Below the pieces are notes generated by a model that worked only from the letters and a program-made list of their open reading frames with translations, was not told the DNA's origin and did not search any database. Of a stretch of 32,000 bases of DNA, positions 3,471 through 28,814 are shown in pieces. Origin of the DNA: Pseudoalteromonas tetraodonis (lineage in GTDB: Bacteria; Pseudomonadota; Gammaproteobacteria; Enterobacterales; Alteromonadaceae); the NCBI RefSeq assembly GCF_002310835.1, contig NZ_CP011041.1:3300001-3332000 (forward strand), read 5' to 3'. A program made the position numbers and the translations under genes. Positions within the stretch are counted from its first letter, which is position 1. Every line of letters starts with the position of its first letter.

Positions 3471-3482
3471 ATTTTTAATTCC

Positions 3483-12759: not shown

Positions 12760-12770
12760 GTGAGCCGCCA

Positions 12771-14360
12771 TTATTGCTGAGTTAGTTCAAGAGCTTGATT
12801 AATTAAATGAAATACAACGTTTTGCTCAATAACACCTTGAGCTAGGTGAGCACCCGGTCCGGTTGCATGCAGTGAAATATCTTCACCTGCGTGTGTTTCA
12901 GAGCTCAGTGGTACCGTGGTTTCTTGGTGAAAACCTGGCGTTGTTGTATCAACACCATTTAGCTCAACACGTCCTGCAACCGCAGCTGTTTCATAGCTTG
13001 CGTCCGCATCCGTTTCATCGATTAAGTTTCTAAAACCGAGGCCATTTGCATAACCTACTGTGGTGTATGGCATGTTATCAGCAGCTAGCGTTGGTGTAGT
13101 TTGCCCTACAGCAACCACCTTACCTAAAATTGGGTTACCACGTTTAGGGTAACCTGCAATAGTAAATACATGGCTATGGTCGGCAGTAACTAAAATAAGG
13201 GTTTCTTCTGGATTGGTGTTATCAACGGCAGCTTGTACTGCTTTTGCAAATTCAATGGTGTCATTAAGTGCATTATATGCGTTACCCGCATGGTGAGCAT
13301 GGTCAATGCGCCCCGACTCAACCGTTAAGAAAAACCCTTTTTCGTTTTTACCCAGTACATCAATGGCTTTGGTGGTCATCTCGGTAAGTGAAGGCTCGCC
13401 TGCTATATCGTTGGCACGGTCAGCTTCGTATTGCATGTGCGATTCGTTAAATAAACCAAATACTTTAGTGGCGTCATCGGCAATGCTATTAAAACCGGCT
13501 TCATCCATCACATAAGTGCCATTTGGATACTGTGTTTGCCACTCAGTAACAAGGTTACGCTCATCGGTACGATCGCCTTCTACGGCGCTCATAGCGTCAG
13601 TAGAATTTGCCGCGGCCTCTTTTGGTAAAAAGTGACGACGGCCGCCACCCATTACAAAATCTAAGCCATCAACATCGGTTCCGACAAAGCGTGCTTCTAG
13701 GTTTTTTTCAAAATTAACCAGCTGTGAGGCAATATCTTCACAGCCAGCATTAACAGCCGCTTCGGGCATGTCTGAGATATCTTCCCAGTTGCGATCAGCC
13801 GATTTAGCATAGGTTGCCGCAGGCGTTGCATGGGTAATGCGGGCAGTAGAGATAATTCCTGTTGCTAGGCCTTTAATTTCAGCAAGTTCAGTGGCTGTAA
13901 GTAACTCATTACCAGCCACCGTTGAGCACTCACCGCGCTCAATATCTTCATCAACACCAATAACACCCACATCGGTTTTTACACCTGAGATCATGGCCGT
14001 CATGGTGCCTGCAGAGTCTGGCGTTTGTGCATCCACATTATAGGTTTTAACTTGCGCAGAGTAAGGGAACTGCTCAAAGCTTAAATAGCCTTCTTCGCCA
14101 AGCTGATTATTGCGTTGACCTTGTAAAATACGCGCTGCGGTTAAGGTAGAAATACCCATGCCATCGCCTACAAATAAAATAACATTTTTAGCTTTAGTGT
14201 TTTTAATTGCCTGCGCTTGCGTTGTTTTTGTTGTTAGTTTTGCTTGGGCAGCGCTGTACCAGCTGCTGTCTTTTTGACTTTGCGGTAAAACATTGGCATG
14301 ACTAACGGCACTAAACGCACAGGTTAGTGCGATTGCCGCAGCAACTTTTTTAATTTTCAT
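12771..14360 (-). CDS. phoA: Alkaline phosphatase (PhoA family), secreted paralog
   Basis: The same catalytic motifs as its neighbour. Signal peptide MKIKKVAAAIALTCAFSAVSHA. Long identical peptide runs are shared with the downstream paralog (ARITHATPAATYAKSADRNWEDISDMP, CEDIASQLVNFEKNLEARF). Confidence 0.92.
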   Translation of the reverse strand: MKIKKVAAAIALTCAFSAVSHANVLPQSQKDSSWYSAAQAKLTTKTTQAQAIKNTKAKNVILFVGDGMGISTLTAARILQGQRNNQLGEEGYLSFEQFPYSAQVKTYNVDAQTPDSAGTMTAMISGVKTDVGVIGVDEDIERGECSTVAGNELLTATELAEIKGLATGIISTARITHATPAATYAKSADRNWEDISDMPEAAVNAGCEDIASQLVNFEKNLEARFVGTDVDGLDFVMGGGRRHFLPKEAAANSTDAMSAVEGDRTDERNLVTEWQTQYPNGTYVMDEAGFNSIADDATKVFGLFNESHMQYEADRANDIAGEPSLTEMTTKAIDVLGKNEKGFFLTVESGRIDHAHHAGNAYNALNDTIEFAKAVQAAVDNTNPEETLILVTADHSHVFTIAGYPKRGNPILGKVVAVGQTTPTLAADNMPYTTVGYANGLGFRNLIDETDADASYETAAVAGRVELNGVDTTTPGFHQETTVPLSSETHAGEDISLHATGPGAHLAQGVIEQNVVFHLINQALELTQQ

Positions 14361-15833: not shown

Positions 15834-16304
15834 TTAGAAAGGCTTGTAAGGTAAGAACTTACCATCAAGCGTAATTACAGCACGTGAGCCACCTTCAGGA
15901 TCTTCAACTTTTTTCATATCTACTTTAAAATTAATTGCACTAATAATACCGTCGCCAAACTGCTCATGAACTAATGCCTTAAACGTTGTACCGTATACTT
16001 GCATCATTTCATAAAAACGGTAAATAGTCGGATCAGTTGGCATATTGTTTTCGACACTACCACGTAGTGGAATAGCTTTAAGTAACTCAACCGCACTTGC
16101 ATCAAGGCCCAGCGTTTGTGCCACTTTTTCAGCGACCTCTGCAGGCAATGGGTGCTGGCCTAATAAAGCCGCCGTCACGTAAACGTCGCTTAAACCTGTG
16201 CCCTCTGCAATTTGTTCAAACGACAGATTTTTTTCTGCTTTTGCAGCAATAATTATATCGGTTAATGCTAGGCGCGCCGTGTTGCTCACTTGAGATTGGA
16301 TCAT
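15834..16304 (-). CDS. cynS: Cyanase (cyanate hydratase) CynS
   Basis: 156 aa, the same length as E. coli CynS and near-collinear with it as I recall it (MIQSQ..., [45 protein letters not shown]). Confidence 0.95.
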
Positions 16305-16328
16305 AATAGTACCTCTTACAATGGTTGG

Positions 16329-16988
16329 TTAAACAGCTACAGGAAGCTGAATTGGATATGCACGAACATCGGTATGTTCGGCAAGGGAAACAAACGTATT
16401 CGTTGCGCCATTTAAAGCTTCAATGCCGCCAGATTCGATATCATAAACCCAGCCATGTAATGCCAAGCGACCTTCGCCAAGCGCAAGACGCACCGATGGA
16501 TGGGTTTTAATGTTTTCAAGTTGTGCGATAACGTTTTCGCGTACCATAGCTTCAATGCGCTCACGTTCATTTGCGTGATTGCGCGCTTCATTGACAATGC
16601 GAGCTGAGTCGGCGTAACGCAGCCAACTGCCAACAGCAGGCATGTTATCCATGCACTTACAGGTTGCTATTGCCGTCATTGCTCCGCAATCAGAATGGCC
16701 GCAAATAACCACATCGGTTACTTGCAGTGCAGTAACTGCATATTCAACTGATGCAGAAACCCCGCCAGGCTCAGGCCCGTAAGATGGGACGATGTTTCCG
16801 GCATTGCGAATAACAAATAATCCACCAGGTTCACGTTGTGTTACGAGCTCAGGCACTAAACGACTATCAGAACATGAAATAAACAAAGTCCGTGGATTTT
16901 GCTTAGTAGCCAAATTTTTAAATAAATCGGCACGCTCTGGGTATGCATCACTTTGAAACTTTAAAAAACCTTCAATGATATCTTTCAT
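16329..16988 (-). CDS. cynT: Beta-class carbonic anhydrase CynT
   Basis: Beta-CA zinc-ligand motifs CSDSRLVPE and HSDCGAM. First gene of the cynTSX arrangement. Confidence 0.92.
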
Positions 16989-17053
16989 AACGGGTGTCTC
17001 TATATTATCGATGAGATGAATATTACGCCCGCTTTTTAATAAGGTAAAAGACT

Positions 17054-17085
17054 GGTATATTATGATACCGATAAGAAATACTTAT
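17054..17085. promoter_or_regulatory. Candidate CynR operator(s) in the cynR/cynT divergent region
   Basis: Two inverted repeats: GGTAT-N6-ATACC (17054-17069) and ATAAG-N5-CTTAT (17071-17085). The second contains a LysR-type T-N11-A motif. The whole intergenic region is only 105 bp. Confidence 0.35.
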
Positions 17086-17093
17086 AGTTAGCT

Positions 17094-17987
17094 ATGATAC
17101 TTCGCCACATCAATTACTTTTTGGCCGTTGCCAAGCACAAAAACTTCACCAAAGCAGCAGCGTCCTTATATGTGTCTCAACCTGCGTTGTCGCAACAAAT
17201 TAAACAGCTTGAAGAAACCCTCGGTGCACCTTTATTTGACCGCTCAGGGCGCAGCGTAAAGTTAACCGATGCGGGTGAGGTATATGCTCGTTATGCACAC
17301 AGAGCCTTGCAGGATTTAGAAGAAGGTAAGCGGGCGATTCATGATGTACAAAACCTCAGCCGAGGTTCATTGCGAGTGGCTATTACGCCGACGTTTACTA
17401 CTTATTTTATTGGGCCATTAGTCAACGCATTTCATCAGCACTACCCCAACATCACCTTAAGCATGGAAGAAATGTCGCAAGAACGCATGGAAAATCGTTT
17501 GTTAGATGATGAGTTTGATGTAGGTATAGCCTTTGAAGGCAACCATAGTGCAGACATACACGCCCAAACTTTATTACAAGAGACACTCGCTTTAGTAGTA
17601 AATAAACACCATGCTTTAGCTAGCAAACACCGTATTGACCTGAGCACTTTAAATGAACAATCACTGGTGCTGCTCAGTAATGAGTTTGCAACTCGCGAAC
17701 AAATTGAACGTCATTGTCGCCAACACAAGGTGCAGCCTAATGTACTTATGGAAGCCAATTCACTCAGTGCCGTTATTGAAATAGTGCGCCATACACAACT
17801 AGCTACTTTGCTTCCCTCTAACATAGCGAGTAAACACGAAGAGTTAGTTGCCATTACTCTTGCACCTTCATTATTAAAACGTACCGCGGTGTTACTACAG
17901 CGACAAGATGCTTACCAAAGTGCCGCAACAGCCGCTTTTATAGAGCTGGCTCACAGCACCGCTGAGGCAATAAGCTCAAACATATAA
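17094..17987 (+). CDS. cynR: LysR-family activator of the cyn operon, CynR
   Basis: Strong collinearity with E. coli CynR as remembered ([62 protein letters not shown]). Divergent from cynT. Confidence 0.9.
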
Positions 17988-18087: not shown

Positions 18088-18333
18088 ATGACTGATACAA
18101 ACAAACCAGAATTACCAAATCAACTGTCTATCAACCCACGTAGCAAATTTTATGTAGAAGAAGTATTTGAGCATGAAATCGGTATTACACTTAACGGTAA
18201 AGAGCGTTTTGACGTTGAAGAATACTGCATCAGCGAAGGTTGGATAAAAGTAGCGGCACCTAAAGCGCTAGACCGTCGCGGCCAGCCATTACTTATGAAA
18301 GTAAAAGGCACTGTAGAAGCGTTTTACAAGTAA
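18088..18333 (+). CDS. DUF3297-family small protein
   Basis: An 81-aa ORF with the pattern I associate with DUF3297 (LSINPRSKFY...GITLNGKER...EGWIKV). Terminator hairpins follow. Confidence 0.6.
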   Translation: MTDTNKPELPNQLSINPRSKFYVEEVFEHEIGITLNGKERFDVEEYCISEGWIKVAAPKALDRRGQPLLMKVKGTVEAFYK

Positions 18334-20349: not shown

Positions 20350-20374
20350 TGTTTAACACTGGCAGTGTTAAACA
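20350..20374. promoter_or_regulatory. 25-bp perfect palindrome (operator or atypical terminator)
   Basis: TGTTTAACACTG-G-CAGTGTTAAACA. It overlaps the merC-like stop codon and lies about 56 bp upstream of the esterase start. There is no T-tract on either strand. Confidence 0.4.
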
Positions 20375-20784
20375 AGTTGGTCTGATTTATCACCTGAACA
20401 GCGGCATTTTTCGTTATTTTTTTTAAAACACTGTTGGTAGTTAAACCAATGGGCTAATGCGATAAAAGCGGAGCCAATTAAAGTGAGTGCTTTTTCGGCC
20501 TCTTCGTAACCTAGCAATACTGCAATTATCAAAAAAGCTAAACCAACAACTCCACACGCCATATAACGTGTACGTTTGTGCTTTTTACAGCCTAAGCTCA
20601 AAGCTAATAAGCTTGTTGGTAATACTGCAGCAAGAACCCATAAGTGAAACTGTTCACCATTTATTTGTAGTACAGCAAAGCTTGGCAACAGCGCTAAAAT
20701 AACCGGTGTTGCAAAACAATGCACCGTGCACATTAACGAAAGCCCAATGGCAAACTTGTCTGCTGTCGTTTGAGTCAGCTTCAT
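20368..20784 (-). CDS. MerC-superfamily membrane protein (putative metal permease)
   Basis: Four predicted TM helices. A CTVHC pair in TM1 is positioned like the MerC CAAC motif. Cys-rich tail CFKKNNEKCRCSGD. Its start abuts or overlaps the zur stop (TAATGA). Confidence 0.6.
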   Translation of the reverse strand: MKLTQTTADKFAIGLSLMCTVHCFATPVILALLPSFAVLQINGEQFHLWVLAAVLPTSLLALSLGCKKHKRTRYMACGVVGLAFLIIAVLLGYEEAEKALTLIGSAFIALAHWFNYQQCFKKNNEKCRCSGDKSDQLV

Positions 20785-21275
20785 TATTTATCCTTCTTTT
20801 TAATTGTGTTAGCGGTACTTTGCTGGCACCCAAAACAAACACCTGAGATTTCTAATTGCGAAGTTGCTGGCGTAAACCCTTTCATTTTCAGTTCCCTAAA
20901 CAAAGATTTAACCGAATTGTTAAGGTCATTCACCTCACTTGCTTTATTACAAGAGCTACAAATTAAAAACATCGATAGTTGATGCTCTCTATCATCATTA
21001 ACGTAACTGCACGGTATAAACTTATTTTCTAACTTTAATCTATGTACCAGACCTACCGACTCTAAAAAACCTAATATCCGATAAACGGACATTGCCAAAA
21101 TCGGTGTATTTATTTGCTTATTAAATTGATCTGTTAACTCATAAGCAGACAAAGGTTTATTTGCTTGCAATAGAATTTCAAATACCTGCTGGCGTTTTGG
21201 CGTTAATTTTTTTTCAGAGGCTTCACATCTTTTTATCGCAAAACCCATCATCTCTTTAAATTGCTGCTTATTCAT
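20784..21275 (-). CDS. zur: Zinc uptake regulator Zur (Fur family)
   Basis: Collinear with E. coli Zur as remembered: KRCEASEKKLTPKRQQVFEIL, LSAYELTD, SVYRILGFLESVGLVHRL, plus two Cys pairs (CSSC ... CFGC). The track start is TTG 21332. ATG 21275 (MNKQQFKEMMGF...) matches the E. coli N-terminal length better. Confidence 0.8.
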   Translation of the reverse strand: MNKQQFKEMMGFAIKRCEASEKKLTPKRQQVFEILLQANKPLSAYELTDQFNKQINTPILAMSVYRILGFLESVGLVHRLKLENKFIPCSYVNDDREHQLSMFLICSSCNKASEVNDLNNSVKSLFRELKMKGFTPATSQLEISGVCFGCQQSTANTIKKKDK

Positions 21276-21543
21276 ATTACCCACTCTAATGTAGTGGGCT
21301 GATGTTTTAACTTTGCCATCCTTGTTGCTCAATGCCTCCGCTGTGGTTTTACCTAAAAATTTATTAACTAGAGCTAAATAAATGTAACAACTAACTTTTG
21401 CTTTACAGCAAACAGATCCCCCACGAACAACACCTAAACAATGACAGAAACACTTAAAGTACTGAATTTAAATAAATTTAATTTAAATTATGTAGATGAA
21501 GCAGCCAAATTATATATCCTGAGTGATTTTTAGTTAATTAACT

Positions 21544-21590
21544 ATTGATACAATATAACATTTCAAGCACAATTGATACAATATAACATT
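21544..21590 (+). promoter_or_regulatory. Two tandem Zur-box-like operators (exact 19-bp direct repeat, 28-bp register)
   Basis: ATTGATACAATATAACATT occurs at 21544-21562 and again at 21572-21590. The core TGATACAATATAACA matches the gammaproteobacterial Zur core TGTTATAnTATAACA (from memory) at 13 of 15. The second copy ends 15 nt before ATG 21606. Confidence 0.65.
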
Positions 21591-21605
21591 CGTAAAGGAA
21601 TTCAA

Positions 21606-24017
21606 ATGACACGAAAATCTCAATTAGCTTTGTTTATAGCAGCCCTACTACCAACAAATGCACTTGCAAATACCATAGAAGGTGTTGTTCTAAACAACCA
21701 AGGTAAAGTGGTGACCAACGCAACTGTAGAAGTTGAAGGCTCAGATATAACAGCAGTAACAGATGCAAGCGGTAAGTTCGTAATAACTGATTTAAAAAGT
21801 GGTTTAAAAGAACTTCATATTACCGCCCCTGGTTATGCCCATCTGCATCGAGATATCACATTTAGTGATGATAAAAGCCAGTCAATTACCTTTAACTTAG
21901 AACGTTCACCCATTGAAGTAATTGATATTGAAGCGACGCCTATTCACATGTCGGCAATGGAATCCTCGTCTCCCGTTAGCGTGTTATCTGGCGAACAATT
22001 AAGACGGCAGCAAGCTGCAACCCTTGGCGATAGCCTTGAAAAACTCCCGGGGGTTAATACTAACTTTCATGCAAAAGTAGCCAGTACACCTATTATTCGT
22101 GGCTTAAGCGGGCCGCGTGTTCTAATTACTCAAAATGGTCTTGATGTCAGTGATGTTTCGCGCGTTGGCCCTGATCACTCCGTTGCATCAGAGGCATCAA
22201 CCGCAAAACAAATCGAAGTATTACGTGGCCCTGCCACATTATTTTATGGCAGCGGCGCCATTGGTGGTGTGGTTAATGTAGTTGATAATCGGGTGCCTAC
22301 CGACAGCACAACTCGCGGCGAATGGAACCTTGAGCACAACTCTGTTGATAATCAAAAAGTAGCCTCGTTTAACGCCACTACAGGAACTGATTCTTTTGCA
22401 TTTTATGCCGACGCCTTTTGGCGTGAAGCCGATGACTATGAAATACCCGTGGCCGCTGAATTAGCCCATGATGACCATAACCATGAAGAACATAGTGGCG
22501 ATTACACCGTTGCAAATAGTAATGAAGAGTCTGACGGCTTTACCTTAGGTACTAGCTATCTATTTGATCAAGGTTTTGTAGGTATAGCTGTTGAGCAATT
22601 TAATCGTCAATACGGCATTCCAGGCCACACCCATGGTGGCGAAGATGTTAATAGCGCTGAGGAAAGCGTATATGCCGACTTAGAGCAAACTAAAGTGCAG
22701 TTGCTAGGTGAATATAACCTTGATAACAAATGGCTTAATAGAGTAAACCTGCGCGCAGGTTTTACAGATTACGAACATGCTGAAATTGAACATGGCGCAG
22801 TGGGTACCACGTTTGAAAATGAAACCAATGAGTTACGCGTAGACTTAATGCATAACCCGTTTGCGCAGTGGAATGGTGGTTTGAGCTTTCATTACAAACA
22901 CAGTGATGTTGAAGCGCAAGGCTCAGAGGCATTCACACCACCGTCACAAACACAAAGCTTTGCTATAGCACTGATGGAAGAAAAACACTTTGGTGACTTT
23001 TTAGTGCAATTAGGTGGCCGAGTTGAACGGGTAACCATCGATGCTGATAACGTGTTACTACCTAACATTGATGCACACGCACACCATGACACCGATGTTC
23101 ATGACGATCATGCTCATGAAGAACATGCCGGCAATACTCGCGTATTTGACGTAGAACAAGAATTCACTCCTGTCAGTTTATCAACAGGTGTCGTGTGGGA
23201 TTTTGCACCTAGCTACAACTTGGGTTTATCGGTATCTCGTTCTGAGCGCGCTCCTTCGGTGTCGGAGCTATTATCATTCGGCCCTCACATTGGAACTGGT
23301 ACTTATGAAGTAGGCGCACTATTTGATATTCATGAAGACGGCCATTTTGGTTTATCTGAGCAAGCGCTTGACCTAGAAACAGCAAACAATATTGATTTAA
23401 CGTTTCGTAAAACCCAAGGTGATATCGGTTTCATTCTTAATGCTTTCTACAACCAAGTAGACAATTATTATTACCAAATCGACACAGGCCTATACGCCGA
23501 AAGCGGCCACGACCATGGTGATGAGCATAATCATGACCACGGTGACGAGCATGATCACTCATCTGAACTCCCAGTTTATTTATTTAAAACAGATGACGTA
23601 ATTTTGCATGGCTTTGAAGCCCAATTTGCATGGCAGTTAACCGATGAGTTTAAAGTTGATTTATTCTCAGATTACGTTCGCGCCCGCCTTAAAGACGGTG
23701 GCGATTTACCCCGTACACCACCATTGCGATTCGGTACTGAGTTTAGCTATCAAACAGAAAAGCTAAGTGCGCACCTTCACGTAACTCGTTATCAAGATCA
23801 AGACCGTACCGCGCCAGAAGAAACAACCACAAACGGCTACACCATGATTGATGCGAGCGTTTCATATGACTTATCAGTGCTAAATCAAGATATGTCCGTG
23901 TATCTACGAGGCACTAACTTAACAGACACAGAAGCTCGCGTGCATAGCTCATTTTTAAAGAATATAGCGCCACGTCCAGGTCGTAGCTTTGCGTTAGGTA
24001 TTCGCGGTTATTTTTAA
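21606..24017 (+). CDS. Zinc-regulated TonB-dependent receptor (ZnuD-like) with an N-terminal CarboxypepD_reg-like domain and three His-rich loops
   Basis: The track start TTG 21573 lies inside the operator repeat. ATG 21606 has an AAAGGAA RBS and the signal peptide ...PTNALA|NT. IEGVVLNNQGKVVTNATVEVEGS...DASGKF looks like an Ig-like regulatory domain. Plug motifs are present and the protein ends in Phe. His clusters: HDDHNHEEH (22467-22493), DAHAHHDTDVHDDHAHEEH (23070-23126), GHDHGDEHNHDHGDEHDH (23505-23558). Confidence 0.85.
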   Translation: MTRKSQLALFIAALLPTNALANTIEGVVLNNQGKVVTNATVEVEGSDITAVTDASGKFVITDLKSGLKELHITAPGYAHLHRDITFSDDKSQSITFNLERSPIEVIDIEATPIHMSAMESSSPVSVLSGEQLRRQQAATLGDSLEKLPGVNTNFHAKVASTPIIRGLSGPRVLITQNGLDVSDVSRVGPDHSVASEASTAKQIEVLRGPATLFYGSGAIGGVVNVVDNRVPTDSTTRGEWNLEHNSVDNQKVASFNATTGTDSFAFYADAFWREADDYEIPVAAELAHDDHNHEEHSGDYTVANSNEESDGFTLGTSYLFDQGFVGIAVEQFNRQYGIPGHTHGGEDVNSAEESVYADLEQTKVQLLGEYNLDNKWLNRVNLRAGFTDYEHAEIEHGAVGTTFENETNELRVDLMHNPFAQWNGGLSFHYKHSDVEAQGSEAFTPPSQTQSFAIALMEEKHFGDFLVQLGGRVERVTIDADNVLLPNIDAHAHHDTDVHDDHAHEEHAGNTRVFDVEQEFTPVSLSTGVVWDFAPSYNLGLSVSRSERAPSVSELLSFGPHIGTGTYEVGALFDIHEDGHFGLSEQALDLETANNIDLTFRKTQGDIGFILNAFYNQVDNYYYQIDTGLYAESGHDHGDEHNHDHGDEHDHSSELPVYLFKTDDVILHGFEAQFAWQLTDEFKVDLFSDYVRARLKDGGDLPRTPPLRFGTEFSYQTEKLSAHLHVTRYQDQDRTAPEETTTNGYTMIDASVSYDLSVLNQDMSVYLRGTNLTDTEARVHSSFLKNIAPRPGRSFALGIRGYF

Positions 24018-24049
24018 GCGCTAAAAAATTATAAATAAAGGAAATTAAC

Positions 24050-25447
24050 ATGACTAAACTATTCAAATTAAAATTAATTGCACTGGCAATAAGCAGCACA
24101 TTAATCACCGCTTGTGGTGATGCAGAAACAAACATTGTTGAAAAAGACCCAATAGAAGTACCTGATGACGGCCACGATCATGGCGATGGTGGCGACCACG
24201 GTGATGAATACACTATTGATTCATTAGGTAGGCTTGCGATACTTGCTGGCGATAGCAACGAAGCGAACTTTTTCGACTTAGACGACAATGAGCTTCTTGA
24301 TACATTCACTCTTACTAATGATTCAAACACGCTATCGTCGTCACCTGATTTTCGTTATGCCGTGATTGCTAGCCGCGCTCAAGATTACCTCGGCTTTATA
24401 GACGGTGGCTTATGGCGTGAAGATCACGGCGCACACCTTCATGATTACGAACAAAGCCCTGAGTTTAGCAGTTATGAGCTAACTAGCGGCAGTCGCCCTA
24501 CTCACTTGGTAAAGCACGATGGTAAATTAGCGGTATTTTACGATGGTGATGCAGCATCAGGCACAACTGCGTCTGTTGAAATATTAACAGATAACGACAT
24601 AACAAACGCAACAGCGACCTTACCTGGTATTAGTTACGACATTAATATGCATGGTGTAGCAGAACCTCGTGGAGAGCATTTATTAGCGACCATTCGCCGC
24701 GATGATGCACAGAGCTCATCAAACGCTAAAATTTTGCCGGATCAGGTAGGTGTTTATCACTTTCATGATGGCGAATACGAACTTGAACAAACGTTAGAGT
24801 TAACATGCCCTGATTTGCACGGCGCAGCACAAAACCATGATTACGTAGCCTTCGGCTGTAGTGACGGTGTGCTATTAGCCCATCAACATGATGACGAGTA
24901 CGAAGCTGAAAAAATAGCGAACATTGCAGCCGTTGGCGATTTACGCATTGGTAGTATTTATGGCCACGAAGATAGCGAGGCCTTTATTGGCGTAGCGTCT
25001 GGTCACGGCGGCGGCCCTGCAGTGCTCTTAAGCATTAACCCTGCGGAAGCTGAAATGGAAGAACTAGAATGGCAACTAGCCGATGGCGCAAGCGCTGTTT
25101 CTTACTCTTTCTCAGCGAATGGCGAGCACTTTTTAGTTTTAGACAGCCTAGGCTTTTTAAATGTGCTTGAGGCGCATGCGCACGACGATCACATACACTG
25201 GGAGCTAGCAGGTCAAGTTGATATTACACAAGAAGATGTAACAACAATGCCTGAAGGCATGAAGTTTAGTATGACAGTAGCGCAAAATGGTCAGTTTGCT
25301 TACGTAGCCGACCCAATAGCCCAACACGTTGTGCAAGTACACCTAGAAGACTTAGAGATTGAAGGCGAGTTAGAACTTACATTCCCACCAGCCGCGATCA
25401 CTTGGTTAGGTATTGCACAAGAGGAAGAACACGCACACGAACATTAA
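24050..25447 (+). CDS. His-rich lipoprotein, probably a beta-propeller, co-transcribed with the ZnuD-like receptor
   Basis: Lipobox LITA|CG with Gly at +2. N-terminal DDGHDHGDGGDHGDE, internal HAHDDHIH, C-terminal EEEHAHEH. Recurring strand patterns (YAVIASRAQDYLGFID, KLAVFYDGD, DYVAFGCSDGVLLA, HFLVLDSLGFLNVLE, FAYVADPIAQHVVQVHL) resemble YncE/YVTN-type blades. RBS AAAGGAAA. It starts 32 nt after the TBDR stop. Confidence 0.6.
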   Translation: MTKLFKLKLIALAISSTLITACGDAETNIVEKDPIEVPDDGHDHGDGGDHGDEYTIDSLGRLAILAGDSNEANFFDLDDNELLDTFTLTNDSNTLSSSPDFRYAVIASRAQDYLGFIDGGLWREDHGAHLHDYEQSPEFSSYELTSGSRPTHLVKHDGKLAVFYDGDAASGTTASVEILTDNDITNATATLPGISYDINMHGVAEPRGEHLLATIRRDDAQSSSNAKILPDQVGVYHFHDGEYELEQTLELTCPDLHGAAQNHDYVAFGCSDGVLLAHQHDDEYEAEKIANIAAVGDLRIGSIYGHEDSEAFIGVASGHGGGPAVLLSINPAEAEMEELEWQLADGASAVSYSFSANGEHFLVLDSLGFLNVLEAHAHDDHIHWELAGQVDITQEDVTTMPEGMKFSMTVAQNGQFAYVADPIAQHVVQVHLEDLEIEGELELTFPPAAITWLGIAQEEEHAHEH

Positions 25448-25467
25448 TTTTATATCTGTATTTACTT

Positions 25468-25497
25468 AAAGGTTGGCGCTTTTTGCCAACCTTTTTT
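25468..25497 (+). terminator. Rho-independent terminator after the lipoprotein gene
   Basis: Stem aaaggttggc (25468-25477) and gccaaccttt (25485-25494), running into T6. Confidence 0.75.
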
Positions 25498-25592
25498 ATT
25501 CACATTTTGTAACAGACCTTTTATCGTAAGTGCATCGCTATTTTTCACCTTATTGTTATGATGGGATAGCTATTAATATAGGACGTAATTCC

Positions 25593-28500
25593 ATGAAAAA
25601 ACTAACAACATTGGCTCTTGCCTTGGCTGCAGCAATCGCGCCGGGTGTATCGGCCTATGAGACTAAAGACACTCGTTTACTCCGCTTTCCAGATATCCAT
25701 AACCAAACCGTTACCTTTGTCTACAGTGGCGATATTTATATTGCGAATACGCAAACAGGCGAAAGCAAACGCTTAACCGACCATATTGGATTTGAAACAT
25801 TTCCTAAGTTTTCCCCTGACGGTAAGCGCATTGCATTTTCAGCCGAGTATAACGGTAGCCGACAAATTTATGTGATCAACAGTGACGGTTCAAACCTAAA
25901 GCAACTTACTTATTATAATGACGTTGGCCCAATGCCACCGCGTGGAGGTTTTGATTACCGCGTTTTAGATTGGACCGCCGATGGTAAAAATGTGCTATTT
26001 AGAGCTAACCGCACACCATGGGGAAAACGTATGGGCCGCCCTTACATGGTTCCTGCAGATGGCGGACTTGAACAGCCATTAGCGATTCCAGAAACTGGTG
26101 GCGGCATGCTATCTCCAGATGGCAGCAAGTATGTTTATACGCCAATTGACCGAGAGTTTCGTACGTGGAAACGTACTCGTGGTGGTCGTGCGCAAGATGT
26201 ATGGATTTATGATTTAGAAAAAAACACCTCAGAACAACTAACTACAAACCGTGCAACCGACCAGCAACCAACTTGGGTTGGTGACAATATTTACTTTGTG
26301 TCTGACCGTGATTACACGCTAAACCTTTACCAGTACCGCAAAGGCAGCGAACCAAAAAAACTTACCAACTATAAAAACTTTGACGTACTTTGGCCTTCAG
26401 CTGGCCCAAATGCGATTGTTTATGAAAACGGCGGTTATTTATATCGCTTTGACGCAAAAACACAAAAAAGCGCTAAGCTAAGCATTAACATTGCTGGCGT
26501 GCGCCAATACGCAATGCCATATAGCAAAAATGTTAGCGATTTTATTGATTCTATGTCGCTCTCTCACGATGGTAAACGCGCTGTATTTACTGCCCGTGGT
26601 GAGTTGTTTAGTGTACCAATTAAACAAGGGCCTACACGCAACTTATCTTACACAGAAAAAAGCCGCGAAATAGATGCAAGCTGGTCACCAAATGGGCGCT
26701 ACATAGCCTACATGAGCGATGAAAGCGGCGAGTACGAAATTTACTTAAAAGATCGCAGTAAAAATAATGCTATTAAGCAACTCACTAGCAATGGCACTAT
26801 TTGGCGCTTTACGCCCATTTGGTCACCAGATAGCTCTAAATTGTTGTTTTCAGATAAAAACAACACACTTTGGTGGTTAGATGCAAAATCGGGCAAGCAA
26901 CACAAAATTGATACCGGTATTTACGACGAAGATGGCATTACTCAATATACTTGGTCGCCTAACAGCCAAGACATTGTATTTGTTAAAAATAACGAAAACC
27001 GTTATGCCTCGCTATGGCACTACAACCTTAAAAAGAAAAAGGTAACGCGCTTAACAGACGAAATGAGTAATGAGCAAAACCCTACTTTTTCGCCTGATGG
27101 TCAATACCTTTACTTTAGCTCAGAGCGCGACTTTAATCTGGCATTTAGTAGCTACGAGTTTGATTACATGTTTAATCGAGCAACCCGTATTTATGCAGCT
27201 GCAGTAAACGATAGCGTTAAACCGCTTATTGCCTTACAAAGTGACGAAGCCACGATTGTCCAAGATAAAGAAGATGAAAAAGAAGACGACAAAAAAGTTA
27301 AAAATGCACTGCAAAGCAATGACTTTATGCAACGTGTTACCGCACTTAATGCCCCAGCAGGCGATTACCGTAGCTTAACCGCAGTAAAAGACGGCGTACT
27401 GACTCTTGCTAATGGCGGTTTACAGCTAATAGGCACCGATCACAACAGTGAGCTAGAAACAGTCGCCAAAGGCGTTAGTAATTACACCATTTCAAGCAAT
27501 AGCGAACACCTACTTGTACATACAGATGGCGGTTACAGCTTAATTGAACCTAAGCCAAAACAAGATTTAGACGCAAATAAGCTCGATTTAAGCAAAATGA
27601 CGCTTAAAATTAATCCGCAAGCAGAGTGGCAACAAATGTATGTAGAAGGTTGGCGCACACTGCGCGATTGGTTCTACGACGAAAACCATCACGGACAAGA
27701 TTGGGATGCTATTTTAGCTAAATACCAACCTATGGCTGATGCCATTAGCCATCGTAGCGACCTTGATTATGTTCTTAGCGAAATTGCCGGTGAAATTAAC
27801 TCTGGCCATATTTATGTGCAGTCGGGTGATATGCCTAAAGCAGAGCGTAAAAACCATGGTTTATTAGGCGCTAAGCTTGCAAGCGACCCATCTGGTTATG
27901 TAAAAATAGAACAAATCTTTAAAGGTGAAAACTGGCATGACGATTTCCGTTCACCGCTTGGCACCACAGGTGTAAAAGCACATAACGGCGATTACATTAT
28001 TGCGGTAAATGGCCGCTCAGTTAAAGACGTTGCTAACTTTTACGAACTCCTTGAAAACACCCAAGGCGAGCAAGTAGAGCTAGTGCTAAACAACAAGCCG
28101 CGTAGCAAAGGCGCATGGCAAATAACTGTAAAACCGATAGCAAGTGAGCAAGGCCTACGTTATTTAGACTGGGTTAATTCGCGTGCAGCCTACGTTGATA
28201 AGCTATCAAGTGGGCGTATTGGCTATGTGCACCTGCCAAATACAGCCTATGAGGGTAACCGCGCCATGTTTAAAAACTACATGCCGCAAACAACCAAAGA
28301 CGCCATGATTATTGATGACCGTTACAATGGCGGCGGTTTTATTCCTGAGCATATGATCACCTGGCTTGCGCGTAAACCGCTTAACTATTGGAAACGCCGT
28401 GGTGTAGAGCCAACTAAAACACCGCAGTTTGCACACAATGGTCCTAAAGCCATGCTAATAAATGGCTATTCAAGTTCTGGTGGTGACGCAATTCCTTACT

Positions 28501-28814
28501 ACTTCCGCCAAGCTGGTCTAGGTAAGCTAATTGGTACCCGTACATGGGGTGGTTTAATTGGTATTTCTGGTAACCCAAGCCTTGTAGACGGCGGGCAAGT
28601 AATTGCTGCTACATTCCGTATTTTAGATACAAAAGGTAACTGGATCATAGAAAACGAAGGTGTTGCACCAGATATTAAAGTAATCGATCGTCCTGAGCTT
28701 ATTTATAAAGGCCAAGACCCATCAATAGAGCGTGCTGTACAAGAGTTATTAAAGGAGCTTAAAGAAAACCCTAAGCAACCTTTAGTGGTGCCACCAGCAC
28801 CTACTGATTTTTAA
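25593..28814 (+). CDS. Tricorn-type protease homolog (TolB-like beta-propellers + PDZ + S41 peptidase)
   Basis: The track start at 25530 adds 21 aa. ATG 25593 gives the signal peptide MKKLTTLALALAAAIAPGVSA|YE. Repeated FSPDG/WSPDG/WSPNG propeller motifs. The C-terminal S41-like region has INGYSSSGGDAIPYYF. The size (about 1070 aa) fits tricorn homologs. Confidence 0.85.
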   Translation: MKKLTTLALALAAAIAPGVSAYETKDTRLLRFPDIHNQTVTFVYSGDIYIANTQTGESKRLTDHIGFETFPKFSPDGKRIAFSAEYNGSRQIYVINSDGSNLKQLTYYNDVGPMPPRGGFDYRVLDWTADGKNVLFRANRTPWGKRMGRPYMVPADGGLEQPLAIPETGGGMLSPDGSKYVYTPIDREFRTWKRTRGGRAQDVWIYDLEKNTSEQLTTNRATDQQPTWVGDNIYFVSDRDYTLNLYQYRKGSEPKKLTNYKNFDVLWPSAGPNAIVYENGGYLYRFDAKTQKSAKLSINIAGVRQYAMPYSKNVSDFIDSMSLSHDGKRAVFTARGELFSVPIKQGPTRNLSYTEKSREIDASWSPNGRYIAYMSDESGEYEIYLKDRSKNNAIKQLTSNGTIWRFTPIWSPDSSKLLFSDKNNTLWWLDAKSGKQHKIDTGIYDEDGITQYTWSPNSQDIVFVKNNENRYASLWHYNLKKKKVTRLTDEMSNEQNPTFSPDGQYLYFSSERDFNLAFSSYEFDYMFNRATRIYAAAVNDSVKPLIALQSDEATIVQDKEDEKEDDKKVKNALQSNDFMQRVTALNAPAGDYRSLTAVKDGVLTLANGGLQLIGTDHNSELETVAKGVSNYTISSNSEHLLVHTDGGYSLIEPKPKQDLDANKLDLSKMTLKINPQAEWQQMYVEGWRTLRDWFYDENHHGQDWDAILAKYQPMADAISHRSDLDYVLSEIAGEINSGHIYVQSGDMPKAERKNHGLLGAKLASDPSGYVKIEQIFKGENWHDDFRSPLGTTGVKAHNGDYIIAVNGRSVKDVANFYELLENTQGEQVELVLNNKPRSKGAWQITVKPIASEQGLRYLDWVNSRAAYVDKLSSGRIGYVHLPNTAYEGNRAMFKNYMPQTTKDAMIIDDRYNGGGFIPEHMITWLARKPLNYWKRRGVEPTKTPQFAHNGPKAMLINGYSSSGGDAIPYYFRQAGLGKLIGTRTWGGLIGISGNPSLVDGGQVIAATFRILDTKGNWIIENEGVAPDIKVIDRPELIYKGQDPSIERAVQELLKELKENPKQPLVVPPAPTDF

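What the first reader, a model, noticed from the sequence alone, without database searches (positions are those of the whole stretch)
20368..25497. Zur-centred divergon that could encode a ZnuABC-independent zinc import route across all envelope layers
Four genes sit around one control region. On the minus strand, zur is translationally abutted to a MerC-superfamily 4-TM protein. On the plus strand, behind two Zur-box-like operators, are a TonB-dependent receptor with three His-rich extracellular-loop-like clusters and a His-rich lipoprotein, closed by a strong terminator.

Together these would give an outer-membrane gate (TBDR), a soluble or anchored His-rich metal-binding partner (lipoprotein) and an inner-membrane permease candidate (MerC-like). 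No znuABC or COG0523 genes are in the window.

ZnuD-type receptors are established. I know of no described function for the lipoprotein partner or for a zur-linked MerC-like permease. The three-part pathway is my inference.
Basis: partly seen in the sequence, partly recalled or inferred. Interest (0 to 1): 0.78.

Follow-up and report, generated by a model that had tools for sequence, protein, structure and literature searches.

The report
Zur-controlled zinc uptake gene cluster
This Pseudoalteromonas gene cluster is a zinc-starvation module: a ZnuD-type outer-membrane receptor, a lipid-anchored relative of the known zinc chaperone AztD, and the zinc regulator Zur co-transcribed with an uncharacterised small membrane protein (a MerC-family variant with a Cys-x-x-His-Cys motif) that recurs in zinc-regulated gene clusters of several bacterial orders and may be a new kind of zinc importer.

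Summary

- The lipoprotein is not functionless. It is a divergent AztD-family zinc chaperone: the predicted propeller matches AztD best (Foldseek E 3.5e-22), and all AztD zinc ligands are invariant. It differs in being lipid-anchored and paired with a ZnuD-like receptor rather than an ABC binding protein.
- The MerC-like protein is the new part. It belongs to a large subfamily (2,188 50%-identity clusters) with a CxxHC motif in place of MerC's CxxC.
- In 43 of 49 loci examined, that gene has a zinc link: adjacent zur (26), COG0523, ZrgA, FolE2, a ZnuD-like receptor or a Zur box. These loci include Alteromonadales, Arenicella, SAR92 and Agaribacterium.
- A 2009 regulon study labelled the gene at this position only as "X".
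- A role as an inner-membrane zinc importer is plausible but inferred (about 0.4).
- "ZnuABC-independent" could not be tested. Relatives carry other importers in the same islands.

Verdict: a new variant of known kinds, moderately to highly interesting.

The parts
20368..20784 (-). MerC-family 4-TM protein of the CxxHC subfamily (138 aa). It is a conserved Zur-regulon member and a candidate inner-membrane Zn(II) permease.
   Evidence: Pfam MerC PF03203, E 4e-29. AF2 model has four helices at 2-36, 43-69, 73-91 and 94-121, pLDDT 68.5. Hydropathy and the positive-inside rule give N-in/C-in topology. Invariant residues are C19, H22, C23, P27, H47, E97, H112 and N115. The gene has a zinc link in 43 of 49 loci.
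20784..21275 (-). zur, the zinc uptake regulator (163 aa from the ATG at 21275; the ORF is open up to a TTG at 21332). Its stop overlaps the merC-like start by 1 nt.
   Evidence: FUR PF01475, E 3e-11. Best NCBIfam match is Zur, E 3e-19, below cutoff. Best PDB matches are 7dh7 (E 2e-19) and E. coli Zur 4mtd (E 4e-13), while Fur proteins score 5e-6 or worse. Junction sequence TAATG.
21544..21562 (.). Zur-box-like operator 1 (ATTGATACAATATAACATT)
   Evidence: 16 of 19 match to the gamma-proteobacterial Zur box; 2 sites found against 0.03 expected. It overlaps the +strand promoter-like hexamers TTGATA-17-CACAAT. Paired boxes 28 bp apart are conserved upstream of the orthologous TBDR in most other Pseudoalteromonas loci. 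It is nearly identical to the Zur site predicted by Haas et al. 2009 in P. atlantica T6c.
21572..21590 (.). Zur-box-like operator 2, identical in sequence to operator 1 and 28 bp downstream of it
   Evidence: It overlaps the promoter-like ATAACA-16-TACAAT with an upstream TG and ends 16 nt before the TBDR ATG.
21606..24017 (+). ZnuD-like TonB-dependent receptor (803 aa) with an N-terminal CarboxypepD_reg-like domain, a plug and a barrel
   Evidence: Pfam CarboxypepD_reg, Plug and TonB_dep_Rec_b-barrel. NCBIfam ZnuD E 6e-112, 376 bits, below the 950 cutoff. PDB ZnuD 4rdr E 7e-57, the only hit at or below 1e-10.
22467..22493 (+). TBDR His-rich cluster 1 (HDDHNHEEH, residues 288-296). It is an insertion relative to ZnuD.
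   Evidence: Alignment to ZnuD shows a gap in ZnuD at this position; sequence.
23052..23144 (+). TBDR His-rich cluster 2 (HAHHDTDVHDDHAHEEH within residues 483-513)
   Evidence: At least 5 His in 20 aa.
23481..23585 (+). TBDR His-rich cluster 3 (GHDHGDEHNHDHGDEHDH within residues 626-660)
   Evidence: At least 5 His in 20 aa.
24050..25447 (+). AztD-family zinc-chaperone homologue made as a lipoprotein. It has Cys22, a disordered Asp/His-rich tether at about residues 23-55, a beta-propeller at about 56-459 and a His-rich C-terminus. It starts 33 nt after the TBDR stop.
   Evidence: NCBIfam AztD E 5e-26. PDB AztD 6ck1 E 4e-13 and 6cmk E 6e-12. AF2 pLDDT 81.8, pTM 0.80. Foldseek top 9 hits are all AztD, E 3.5e-22 to 5e-17, target TM-score 0.80. 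The equivalents of the AztD ligands (H126, H129, D132, H152, H201, H257, H465) are invariant or nearly so in 26 homologues.
25468..25500 (+). Intrinsic terminator closing the TBDR-lipoprotein operon
   Evidence: 11-bp stem with 5 G-C pairs, 5-nt loop, then TTTTATT.

Best explanation
This is a Zur-repressed zinc-acquisition module of a Pseudoalteromonas.

When zinc is sufficient, Zn-Zur occupies two tandem operators that overlap the promoter of a two-gene operon. When zinc runs low, the operon is derepressed.

The first product is a ZnuD-type TonB-dependent receptor. Its His/Asp-rich insertions capture zinc, and it moves zinc across the outer membrane. The second product is a divergent AztD-family beta-propeller. 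It keeps both AztD zinc sites but is lipid-anchored, probably to the periplasmic face of the outer membrane through a disordered tether of about 33 residues. It most likely collects zinc as it emerges from the receptor and passes it to an inner-membrane uptake system.

On the other strand, zur is translationally coupled to a 4-TM MerC-family protein of a distinct CxxHC subfamily. This protein is a conserved member of Zur regulons. I propose it acts as an inner-membrane Zn(II) uptake channel or permease, working like MerT/MerC do for Hg(II):
- acidic and His residues in the periplasmic loops (E44, H47, E97) receive the ion;
- a Cys2His site in TM1 (C19, H22, C23), with H112 in TM4, carries it through the membrane;
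- cytoplasmic Cys/His residues (C66, H69 and the C-terminal Cys residues) release it, in many relatives probably to the COG0523 GTPase encoded immediately downstream.

Shown here: gene identities, the fold and ligand conservation of the lipoprotein, conservation of the operators, and the conserved zinc-linked gene context of the MerC-like gene.

Inferred: regulation in vivo, where the lipoprotein sits, the direction of transport and the substrate of the MerC-like protein, and every hand-off step.
For: - Identities.
- Operators: two sites found against 0.03 expected. They overlap promoter-like hexamers. Paired boxes 28 bp apart are conserved upstream of the orthologous TBDR in most Pseudoalteromonas loci, with related sites in Thalassotalea, Paraglaciecola, Alteromonas and Catenovulum. 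They match the Zur sites predicted by Haas et al. 2009 for the zbp-zur-X-yciC-DUF1826-folE2 operon.
- Lipoprotein is AztD-like: sequence; fold, with Foldseek E 3.5e-22 and target TM-score 0.80 against 5e-10 for the next fold; all ligands of AztD sites 1 and 2 as defined in PMC6689063 align to invariant residues. It is always encoded directly after the TBDR.
- MerC-like as a zinc gene: of 49 loci, 26 have zur immediately upstream, 32 have the ZnuD-like TBDR plus AztD-like pair, 17 have ZrgA, 13 have COG0523, and 43 have at least one zinc link.
- In the P. distincta/aliena clade, merC-like faces the TBDR directly across a 142-bp intergenic region that holds both Zur boxes, with no zur gene there.
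- In Arenicella, a Zur box with 1 mismatch lies 30 nt upstream of a stand-alone merC-like gene.
- zur-merC-COG0523 also occurs in SAR92 HTCC2207, Agaribacterium and metagenomic contigs, and Zur box-TBDR-merC occurs in L050.
- Subfamily signature: CxxHC in 137 of the 150 best representatives. Topology is N-in/C-in with acidic periplasmic loops and basic cytoplasmic loops.
Against: - There are no expression or transport data.
- In this window the boxes are 270-315 nt from the zur ATG, and the only minus-strand promoter-like site (21537-21509) lies beside box 1 rather than under it. Zur control of zur-merC here is therefore unproven.
- The lipoprotein and the TBDR both score far below the NCBIfam cutoffs for AztD and ZnuD.
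- AztD's characterised partner is a ZnuA-type binding protein. None is encoded in the window or in any of the 45 related loci then held, so the acceptor is unknown.
- Related islands carry other candidate importers (ABC plus MacB/FtsX, DUF3299, ZrgA), so the MerC-like protein need not be the importer.
- The MerC-like model has only moderate confidence and matches no solved structure.
- The six most distant loci show no zinc link.
- The locus sample is phylogenetically clustered (about half Pseudoalteromonas) and was gathered using motifs taken from this clade.
Confidence: 0.72

Rival explanations
1. The TBDR, the lipoprotein and the MerC-like protein together form a complete, self-sufficient zinc import route that works without ZnuABC, with the MerC-like protein as the dedicated inner-membrane step.
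For: - The quartet is conserved as a unit with unrelated flanks.
- In one Pseudoalteromonas clade, merC-like and the TBDR-lipoprotein operon share a single Zur-box intergenic region without zur.
- No ZnuA or ZnuB homologue lies in the window or within 8-10 kb in any of the 45 related loci then held.
Against: - Absence from 32 kb says nothing about the rest of a genome of about 4 Mb, and the anticorrelation with znuABC could not be tested here.
- The Catenovulum locus keeps TBDR-lipoprotein without merC-like or zur within 10 kb.
- Arenicella, SAR92 and Agaribacterium keep merC-like without the TBDR-lipoprotein pair. The parts are therefore separable.
- Relatives carry additional zinc import candidates in the same island.
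Confidence: 0.2
2. The TBDR and the AztD-like lipoprotein import zinc as described, but the MerC-like protein is not an importer. It could be a membrane dock or zinc donor site for COG0523-type chaperones. It could be a zinc or thiol sensor that modulates Zur. Or it could export or buffer metal to prevent overshoot when uptake is derepressed.
For: - Its tightest partners are zur (26 of 49 loci) and COG0523 (directly adjacent in 8, present in 13), both cytoplasmic proteins.
- Many islands already encode ABC-type importers.
- The conserved cytoplasmic Cys/His residues (C66, H69 and the C-terminal Cys residues) would suit a protein-protein hand-off.
Against: - The characterised members of the family it belongs to, MerC/MerT-type proteins, are metal uptake proteins (established knowledge).
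- It sits in operons that are otherwise made of zinc-starvation-induced genes.
- Conserved acidic and His residues face the periplasm.
- In the P. distincta clade, Arenicella and L050 it occurs with a TBDR or alone behind a Zur box, with neither zur nor COG0523.
Confidence: 0.3
3. The lipoprotein is surface-exposed and acts as an extracellular zinc-capture lid or partner of the TBDR, in the manner of SusD/SusC or TbpB/TbpA. It is not a periplasmic chaperone.
For: - The gene order, TBDR followed by lipoprotein, and the N-terminal CarboxypepD_reg-like domain of the TBDR resemble SusC/SusD-type pairs.
- Lipobox with Gly at +2, so no Asp(+2) inner-membrane retention signal by the E. coli rule.
- A long disordered His/Asp-rich tether.
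- AztD homologues are extracellular lipoproteins in Gram-positive bacteria (PMC6689063).
Against: - No Slam/DUF560-type or other surface-lipoprotein export gene in the window.
- The characterised Gram-negative AztD proteins are periplasmic.
- No structural or localisation data.
Confidence: 0.15
4. The module handles another metal such as Co, Ni, Cd or Cu, or a metallophore, rather than zinc.
For: His-rich motifs and Cys/His sites are not strictly zinc-specific. TBDRs often take up chelates.
Against: - The regulator groups with Zur proteins, not Fur or Nur.
- The operators match Zur boxes.
- Neighbours in relatives are classic Zur-regulon genes: COG0523, FolE2, HisI2, DUF1826 and ZrgA.
- The AztD zinc ligands are conserved.
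Confidence: 0.05

Closest known systems
AztD, the periplasmic zinc metallochaperone of the AztABCD system (Paracoccus denitrificans, Citrobacter koseri; PDB 6ck1, 6cmk, 6n01)
   Same: - Beta-propeller fold (Foldseek E 3.5e-22, target TM-score 0.80).
- The site-1 His triad and the site-2 His-x-x-His-x-Asp plus C-terminal His are all conserved.
- A flexible His-rich terminal tract.
- Zur-regulon context.
   Different: - Only about 21-23% identical, and 91 bits against the 400-bit NCBIfam cutoff.
- Made as a lipoprotein, with invariant Cys-Gly-Asp and a tether of about 33 residues.
- About 60 residues longer, with further invariant residues (H131, H237, H239, H306, H376, H378 and the Cys pair C253/C270).
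- Always encoded directly after a ZnuD-like TonB-dependent receptor, never beside a ZnuA-type binding protein or ABC genes. The AztD genome-neighbourhood survey does not mention TonB receptors at all.
ZnuD, the zinc TonB-dependent receptor of Neisseria meningitidis (PDB 4rdr)
   Same: - Best and only strong PDB homologue (E 7e-57).
- Best NCBIfam match.
- Zur-box control.
- His/Asp-rich insertions.
   Different: - Below the ZnuD equivalog cutoff (376 against 950 bits).
- Carries an N-terminal CarboxypepD_reg-like domain that is not listed for ZnuD.
- Its His-rich clusters sit at different places from ZnuD's HDDDNAHAHTH loop.
- Partnered with an AztD-like lipoprotein.
MerC, the Hg(II) uptake protein of mer operons (Tn21/R100)
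   Same: - Member of Pfam family PF03203 (E 4e-29).
- About 140 aa with four TM helices and N-in/C-in topology.
- Metal-ligand motif in TM1 and Cys residues in the cytoplasmic tail.
   Different: - No significant pairwise similarity to Tn21 MerC (BLASTP E 1.7, 19% identity).
- TM1 motif is C-x-x-H-C rather than C-A-A-C.
- Additional invariant residues H47, H112 and N115.
- No merR, merT, merP or merA nearby. The gene is instead embedded in Zur regulons.
The predicted Zur-regulated operon zbp-zur-X-yciC-DUF1826-folE2 of 'Pseudoalteromonas atlantica' T6c (Haas et al. 2009, BMC Genomics 10:470, Additional file 5)
   Same: - Same family of zinc islands.
- The Paraglaciecola loci fetched here read ZrgA-zur-MerC-like-COG0523-DUF1826-FolE2.
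- The predicted Zur sites are nearly identical to the window's boxes and are also paired, 29 bp apart.
   Different: That study left gene 'X' unnamed and did not discuss the divergent TBDR-lipoprotein operon. The window carries a reduced version without ZrgA, COG0523, DUF1826 or FolE2.
Vibrio cholerae ZrgABCDE and Pseudomonas aeruginosa PA4063-PA4066, which are accessory Zur-regulated zinc import systems
   Same: ZrgA (PF10986), DUF3299 and ABC plus MacB/FtsX genes lie beside zur-merC-like in Paraglaciecola, Agaribacterium and metagenomic loci.
   Different: None of these genes is in the window. No MerC-like component was mentioned for those systems in the papers I read (recalled knowledge, not tested here).

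Membership tests
AztD zinc metallochaperone | Beta-propeller fold like PDB 6ck1/6cmk | tested here: met
   AF2 pLDDT 81.8, pTM 0.80. The nine best Foldseek hits are all AztD chains, E 3.5e-22 to 5e-17, target TM-score 0.79-0.81. The next fold, NirF, scores 5e-10.
AztD zinc metallochaperone | Site 1 zinc ligands His124/His167/His218 (PdAztD numbering; PMC6689063) | tested here: met
   They align to H152, H201 and H257, each present in 26 of 26 homologues.
AztD zinc metallochaperone | Site 2 ligands His99, His102 and Asp104 plus the C-terminal His408 | tested here: met
   They align to H126, H129 and D132 (26/26, 26/26 and 25/26). The C-terminal residue H465 is present in 26/26.
AztD zinc metallochaperone | Scores above the curated NCBIfam AztD model cutoff (NF038015, 400 bits) | tested here: not met
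   91.3 bits, E 4.8e-26. It is a distant subfamily.
AztD zinc metallochaperone | Encoded with its acceptor, a cluster A-I (ZnuA-type) binding protein, and ABC transporter genes (aztABC) | tested here: not met
   No ZnuA or ZnuB homologue in the window or in 45 related loci totalling 698 kb. The invariable neighbour is a TBDR.
AztD zinc metallochaperone | Binds Zn(II) with high affinity and transfers it directly to a partner protein | not testable with these tools
   Needs purified protein.
ZnuD-type zinc TonB-dependent receptor | Plug plus 22-strand barrel architecture, closest to ZnuD among characterised receptors | tested here: met
   Pfam Plug and barrel. PDB ZnuD E 7e-57, the sole hit at or below 1e-10. 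ZnuD is the top NCBIfam model, E 6e-112.
ZnuD-type zinc TonB-dependent receptor | Scores above the NCBIfam ZnuD cutoff (950 bits) | tested here: not met
   375.6 bits.
ZnuD-type zinc TonB-dependent receptor | Zur operator in the promoter | tested here: met
   Two Zur-box-like sites 16-62 nt upstream of the ATG, conserved in orthologous loci. Binding itself was not tested.
ZnuD-type zinc TonB-dependent receptor | His/Asp-rich zinc-binding extracellular loop | tested here: inconclusive
   Three His/Asp-rich clusters exist, but at positions other than ZnuD's His-rich loop. Their placement in loops was not modelled.
MerC (mercury transport) | Membership of Pfam PF03203 | tested here: met
   101.7 bits against a cutoff of 27.6.
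MerC (mercury transport) | Four TM helices with both termini in the cytoplasm | tested here: met
   AF2 gives four helices. The positive-inside rule agrees: loop 2 and the C-tail each have five K+R, and loops 1 and 3 are acidic. This is prediction only.
MerC (mercury transport) | Cys-x-x-Cys pair in TM1 (Cys22/Cys25 of Tn21 MerC) | tested here: not met
   Tn21 MerC reads GCAAC. The window protein reads CTVHC, that is C-x-x-H-C. This motif is present in 137 of the 150 best subfamily representatives.
MerC (mercury transport) | Encoded in a mer operon with merR, merT/merP and merA | tested here: not met
   No mer genes in the window or in the Pfam-annotated relatives. Compare the R100 mer operon.
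Zur (zinc uptake regulator) | Fur-family fold, closer to Zur than to Fur or PerR | tested here: met
   PF01475. Zur is the top NCBIfam model, though below cutoff (69 against 167 bits). PDB: 7dh7 E 2e-19 and E. coli Zur 4mtd E 4e-13, against Fur at 5e-6.
Zur (zinc uptake regulator) | Zinc-dependent binding to Zur boxes | not testable with these tools
   Only the presence and conservation of Zur-box-like sites was shown.

The most novel reading that the evidence does not exclude
The CxxHC subfamily of MerC-domain proteins is a previously unrecognised family of bacterial inner-membrane Zn(II) importers. It has at least 2,188 clusters at 50% identity, and the gene was left as 'X' in a 2009 Zur-regulon reconstruction. 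On this reading it takes zinc from periplasmic chaperones (AztD-like lipoprotein, ZrgA), carries it through a membrane-embedded Cys2His site, and hands it to cytoplasmic COG0523 GTPases. It would be the zinc counterpart of the MerP-MerT/MerC-MerA mercury relay. Together with a ZnuD-like receptor and a tethered AztD, it would form an ATP-independent zinc route across the whole envelope in many marine Gammaproteobacteria.
Probability: 0.35. Interest if true: 0.82.

Novelty: new variant of a known kind. Interest (0 to 1): 0.62.

Why it matters
Zinc is scarce in seawater, and how marine heterotrophs move it from the outer membrane to the cytoplasm is only partly understood.

Two results here are usable straight away.
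- A widespread Alteromonadales protein annotated as '5-methyltetrahydrofolate--homocysteine methyltransferase' is really a lipid-anchored AztD-type zinc chaperone wired to a ZnuD-like receptor. This extends the AztD mechanism from ABC transporters to TonB-dependent uptake, and it corrects a database annotation that has been copied widely.
- A large MerC-domain subfamily with a Cys-x-x-His-Cys motif recurs in Zur-regulated gene clusters of several gammaproteobacterial orders, usually between zur and a COG0523 chaperone gene, yet has no assigned function.

If the MerC-like protein imports zinc, it would add a new transporter class to zinc homeostasis. It would also give COG0523 proteins, whose zinc source is debated, a defined membrane partner. 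The candidate is small, genetically tractable and directly testable.

Tried and rejected
- **Anticorrelation with znuABC.** Not testable. The single genome-contig scan returns only +/-8 kb around matches, and no tool gives whole-genome gene content. I could show only that no ZnuA or ZnuB homologue lies in the window or in 45 loci. A literature search for Pseudoalteromonas plus znuA gave nothing useful.
- **Literature on MerC-like proteins and zinc or Zur.** 'MerC-like'+zinc and 'MerC domain'+zinc each returned 0 papers. 'MerC'+'Zur regulon' and MerC+zinc+Zur+TonB each returned one general review. The first search, with word-start 'merc', was swamped by Merck, Merchant and mercury.
- **Caulobacter zrpW as a possible equivalent.** Rejected. 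It is a six-TM protein, not MerC-like.
- **Fold search with the MerC-like model.** No hit better than E 1.1, so no structural analogue and no support for a VKOR/DsbB-type redox reading.
- **Rfam scan of the whole window.** No RNA family at gathering score, so nothing explains the long 5' region of zur.
- **Hg(II) MerC reading.** Rejected on the motif, the lack of pairwise similarity and the context.
- **Methionine-synthase annotation of the lipoprotein.** Rejected. It has no Pfam or NCBIfam match to methyltransferases and has the AztD fold.
- **L042.** The ORF extracted for this locus was in the wrong frame over part of its length, so it was dropped from the alignments.
- **Structure of the TBDR.** The loop assignment of the His clusters stays inferred.
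- **Coordinates of the AF2 models.** Not available to me, so I could not measure the spatial clustering of the extra invariant His residues or of the MerC-like ligands.

Full report
**1. What is in the sequence**

The region holds four ORFs in a divergent arrangement.
- Minus strand: a Fur-family regulator. The ORF is listed as 20784-21332, but the family match starts at residue 20, so the likely start is the ATG at 21275, giving 163 aa.
- Minus strand: a 138-aa protein at 20368-20784. Its ATG shares one base with the regulator's stop codon (TAATG).
- Plus strand: a TonB-dependent receptor (TBDR). The likely start is the ATG at 21606, followed by a signal peptide, and the gene ends at 24017.
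- Plus strand, 33 nt further on: a 465-aa protein at 24050-25447 with a lipobox (LITA|C22).
- A strong intrinsic terminator at 25468-25494, with an 11-bp stem and a T run.

The closest relatives of the lipoprotein (98% identical) and the MerC-like protein (100% identical) are from Pseudoalteromonas tetraodonis/issachenkonii-type strains.

**2. The control region**

Two identical 19-mers, ATTGATACAATATAACATT, lie at 21544-21562 and 21572-21590, 28 bp apart. Each matches the gamma-proteobacterial Zur box AATGTTATAWTATAACATT at 16 of 19 positions. Two such sites were found against 0.03 expected by chance, and there is no other in the 32 kb. They overlap the two plus-strand promoter-like sites and end 16 nt before the TBDR start.

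Read on the other strand, the box is almost the same as the Zur site that Haas et al. 2009 predicted upstream of the 'zbp-zur-X-yciC-DUF1826-folE2' operon of P. atlantica T6c. Two sites there lie 29 bp apart.

Paired or single boxes are conserved upstream of the orthologous TBDR in nearly every related locus I fetched.

One caveat applies. In this window the boxes are 270-315 nt from the zur ATG. The only minus-strand promoter-like site (21537-21509) lies beside box 1 rather than under it. Control of zur-merC by these boxes in this genome is therefore plausible but not shown.

**3. The regulator and the receptor**

The regulator's best solved relatives are 7dh7 (E 2e-19) and E. coli Zur 4mtd (E 4e-13), while Fur proteins score 5e-6 or worse. 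Zur is also its top NCBIfam model, although below the cutoff.

For the receptor, N. meningitidis ZnuD is the only PDB match at or below 1e-10 (E 7e-57). ZnuD is also its top NCBIfam model (E 6e-112), but at 376 bits it falls below the 950-bit cutoff.

The receptor differs from ZnuD in two ways.
- It carries an N-terminal CarboxypepD_reg-like domain, which is present in all orthologues.
- Its three His/Asp-rich clusters lie at other positions than ZnuD's His-rich loop.

Histidine makes up 5.0% of the receptor and 6.0% of the lipoprotein, against 2.0% in 21 other ORFs of the window.

**4. The lipoprotein is a divergent AztD**

It has no Pfam match, and NCBI names the family '5-methyltetrahydrofolate--homocysteine methyltransferase'. 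Nothing supports that name.
- NCBIfam gives AztD at E 5e-26, 91 bits against a cutoff of 400.
- phmmer against the PDB finds only the two AztD proteins, at E 4e-13 and 6e-12.
- An AlphaFold model built from 26 homologues is confident (pLDDT 81.8, pTM 0.80). It is all-beta from about residue 56, with residues 23-55 disordered.
- The nine best Foldseek hits are all AztD chains (E 3.5e-22 to 5e-17, target TM-score about 0.80). The next fold, NirF, scores 5e-10.

The AztD paper defines site 1 as His124/His167/His218 and site 2 as His99/His102/Asp104 plus the C-terminal His408 (PMC6689063). In the HMMER alignment these correspond to H152/H201/H257 and to H126/H129/D132 plus the C-terminal H465. All are present in 25 or 26 of the 26 homologues.

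The fold and the metal sites are therefore AztD's. The differences are:
- low sequence similarity;
- the lipid anchor (C22-G23-D24, invariant) with an Asp/His-rich tether;
- additional invariant residues (H131, H237, H239, H306, H376, H378) and a Cys pair (C253/C270);
- the gene context.

On context, the AztD study found ZnuA-type binding proteins, ABC genes, Fur and CobW as neighbours and never mentions TonB receptors. Here the gene always directly follows the ZnuD-like TBDR. No ZnuA or ZnuB homologue is present in the window or in 45 related loci totalling 698 kb.

**5. The MerC-like protein**

It belongs to Pfam MerC (E 4e-29) but shows no significant pairwise similarity to Tn21/R100 MerC (BLASTP E 1.7, 19% identity).

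Where MerC has C-A-A-C in TM1, this protein has C19-T-V-H22-C23. Across diverse relatives the invariant or near-invariant residues are D9, C19, H22, C23, P27, P34, F46, H47, P56, G65, H69, E97, H112 and N115.

An exhaustive search of cluster representatives finds 2,188 clusters at E up to 0.001 and 453 at E up to 1e-10. The CxxHC motif is in 137 of the 150 best.

AlphaFold gives four helices with moderate confidence (pLDDT 68.5). Hydropathy and the positive-inside rule place both termini in the cytoplasm, with acidic periplasmic loops and basic cytoplasmic ones. No solved structure resembles the model.

**6. Gene context of the MerC-like gene**

I fetched loci in three ways: through the lipoprotein, through a genome scan with a MerC-like alignment, and through further MerC-like homologues. 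I mapped their genes with phmmer and Pfam.

Of 49 loci that carry a MerC-like gene:

| Feature in the locus | Loci |
|---|---|
| zur immediately upstream | 26 |
| ZnuD-like TBDR plus AztD-like lipoprotein | 32 |
| ZrgA | 17 |
| COG0523 | 13 |
| DUF3299 | 11 |
| DUF1826 | 9 |
| FolE2 | 7 |
| Zur-box-like site within 1.3 kb of the merC-like start | 38 |
| At least one zinc link | 43 |

The most informative cases are these.
- **Thalassotalea:** the same quartet with unrelated flanks.
- **Paraglaciecola:** ZrgA-zur-merC-COG0523-DUF1826-FolE2, divergent from TBDR-lipoprotein.
- **P. distincta/aliena/fuliginea clade:** no zur at the locus. merC-like faces the TBDR directly across 142 bp that contain both Zur boxes.
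- **Arenicella:** a Zur box with one mismatch lies 30 nt upstream of a stand-alone merC-like gene.
- **SAR92 HTCC2207, Agaribacterium and two metagenomic contigs:** zur-merC-COG0523, with ZrgA, HisI2, DUF3299 and ABC/FtsX genes in Agaribacterium and the two metagenomic contigs.
- **L050:** Zur box-TBDR-merC.
- **Aliiglaciecola:** a second copy in ZrgA-merC2-DUF1826.

The parts can also occur separately. Catenovulum has TBDR-lipoprotein without zur or merC-like within 10 kb.

The six loci without any zinc link are distant: two gammaproteobacterial MAGs (L030/L031), and Marinimicrobia, Vulcanimicrobiota, Phycisphaerales and an unclassified Pseudomonadota MAG. In L030/L031, merC-like follows an ABC-2/DUF3526 transporter, the type that Caulobacter uses as ZnuGHI.

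Caveats: about half the loci are Pseudoalteromonas, the scan patterns came from this clade, and a tolerance of 4 mismatches for Zur boxes admits some chance hits.

**7. What is known already**

ZnuD, AztD, Zur and the COG0523/FolE2/DUF1826 zinc islands are established.

Haas et al. 2009 listed the Paraglaciecola operon as Zur-regulated and labelled the gene between zur and yciC only as 'X'. By position, this is the MerC-like gene.

I found no paper in the searchable library that links a MerC-domain protein to zinc or Zur. I also found none that pairs an AztD homologue with a TonB-dependent receptor. The library is incomplete, so this is only absence of evidence.

**8. Most likely mechanism**

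*Supported by the evidence above, without experiments.* This is a Zur-box-controlled operon for a ZnuD-type receptor and an AztD-type zinc-binding propeller, and the MerC-like gene is a conserved Zur-regulon member.

*Inferred.*
- The lipoprotein is probably tethered to the inner face of the outer membrane: Gly at +2, no surface-export gene nearby, and Gram-negative AztD proteins are periplasmic. There it would take zinc from the receptor.
- The MerC-like protein would then carry Zn(II) across the inner membrane through its Cys2His site, by analogy with Hg(II) uptake by MerT/MerC (established knowledge, recalled). It would release zinc in the cytoplasm, in many relatives to the COG0523 protein encoded next to it.

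I put about 0.72 on the module-level statement and about 0.4 on the importer role.

The main rival is that the MerC-like protein has another zinc-related membrane role, such as a dock for COG0523, a sensor or an efflux/buffering function, while zinc crosses the inner membrane through other systems. Relatives do carry ABC/FtsX and ZrgA/DUF3299 genes in the same islands.

**9. Verdict**

The finding is a new variant of known kinds: an AztD chaperone re-wired to a TonB-dependent receptor, plus a large uncharacterised CxxHC MerC subfamily embedded in Zur regulons. The second part is the more interesting lead and can be tested directly.

Noticed in passing
window 971-6280 (+): A second metal-uptake-looking cluster: DUF454, PepSY_TM_like_2, DUF2271, DUF4198 and a TonB-dependent receptor. 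A Fur-box-like site (GCTAATGCAAATCATTATC, 3 mismatches, 0 expected by chance) lies at 1398-1416. DUF4198 is the family of the recently described Neisseria periplasmic zinc-capture protein Zcp (PMC12663993). DUF2271, DUF4198 and PepSY genes appear among the Fur-linked genes in the Caulobacter zur study. There is no Zur box here.
   Followed up: partly
window 24050-25447 and its homologues P0001-P0120: NCBI and UniRef name this whole Alteromonadales lipoprotein family '5-methyltetrahydrofolate--homocysteine methyltransferase'. It has no methyltransferase domain and has the AztD fold with AztD's zinc ligands, so the name looks like a propagated misannotation.
   Followed up: yes
window 24050-25447, residues H131, H237, H239, H306, H376, H378, C253, C270: Besides the AztD ligands, six more His residues and a Cys pair are invariant or nearly so in 26 homologues. 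They may form an additional metal site or a disulfide that is absent from the characterised AztD proteins. Their positions in the model could not be inspected.
   Followed up: no
window 18088-18333 (+): A DUF3297 gene lies convergent to merC-like in nearly all Pseudoalteromonas loci, whereas the esterase and homocysteine S-methyltransferase between them in this window are variable insertions. A DUF3297 protein also changed expression in the Caulobacter zur mutant. Whether this is more than synteny is unknown.
   Followed up: partly
window 10963-14360 (-): Two tandem PhoA-type alkaline phosphatases (602 and 529 aa, Pfam Alk_phosphatase E about 1e-125 each). This enzyme family is zinc-dependent (recalled knowledge).
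   Followed up: no
window 15834-17987: Cyanase (cynS) and a beta-class carbonic anhydrase lie divergent from a LysR regulator, a cyn-type operon.
   Followed up: no
window 25530-28814 (+): A large tricorn-like protease (PD40 repeats, Tricorn_C1, Tricorn PDZ and Peptidase_S41) lies directly after the terminator. It is syntenic in many but not all Pseudoalteromonas loci and shows no sign of belonging to the zinc module.
   Followed up: partly
L035 11215-13066 and L039 11226-13039 (Aliiglaciecola): A second MerC-like paralogue sits in its own ZrgA-merC2-DUF1826 arrangement behind Zur-box-like sites, in addition to the zur-merC copy.
   Followed up: partly
L030 4345-8381 and L031 818-4854 (gammaproteobacterial MAGs): A MerC-like gene is the last gene of an operon encoding an ABC ATPase and two ABC-2/DUF3526 permeases. 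The Caulobacter Zur-regulated zinc importer ZnuGHI is described as an ABC-2 type system. Homology to ZnuGHI was not checked.
   Followed up: no
L032 11995-14234, L036 6628-9271, L040 12081-14217, L048 9537-12164, L051 9456-12251: Pairs or singles of DUF3299 genes lie divergent from an ABC ATPase, followed by a MacB_PCD/FtsX permease where Pfam calls are available (L048, L051). A Zur-box-like site lies between them in the Paraglaciecola loci L032, L036 and L040. This looks like a further Zur-regulated transporter in the same islands.
   Followed up: partly
P0154 (MerC-like variant, 153 aa; 5 member sequences, 7 contigs): It carries an exact 15-residue internal duplication (LAVLQINAEQFHLWI) covering the first periplasmic loop and the conserved F-H motif.
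   Followed up: no
window 21333-21540: An AT-rich stretch of about 200 nt with short direct repeats (aaatttaatttaaatt) lies between the Zur boxes and zur. There is no Rfam match. Its role, whether a long 5' UTR, a promoter or something else, is unexplained.
   Followed up: partly
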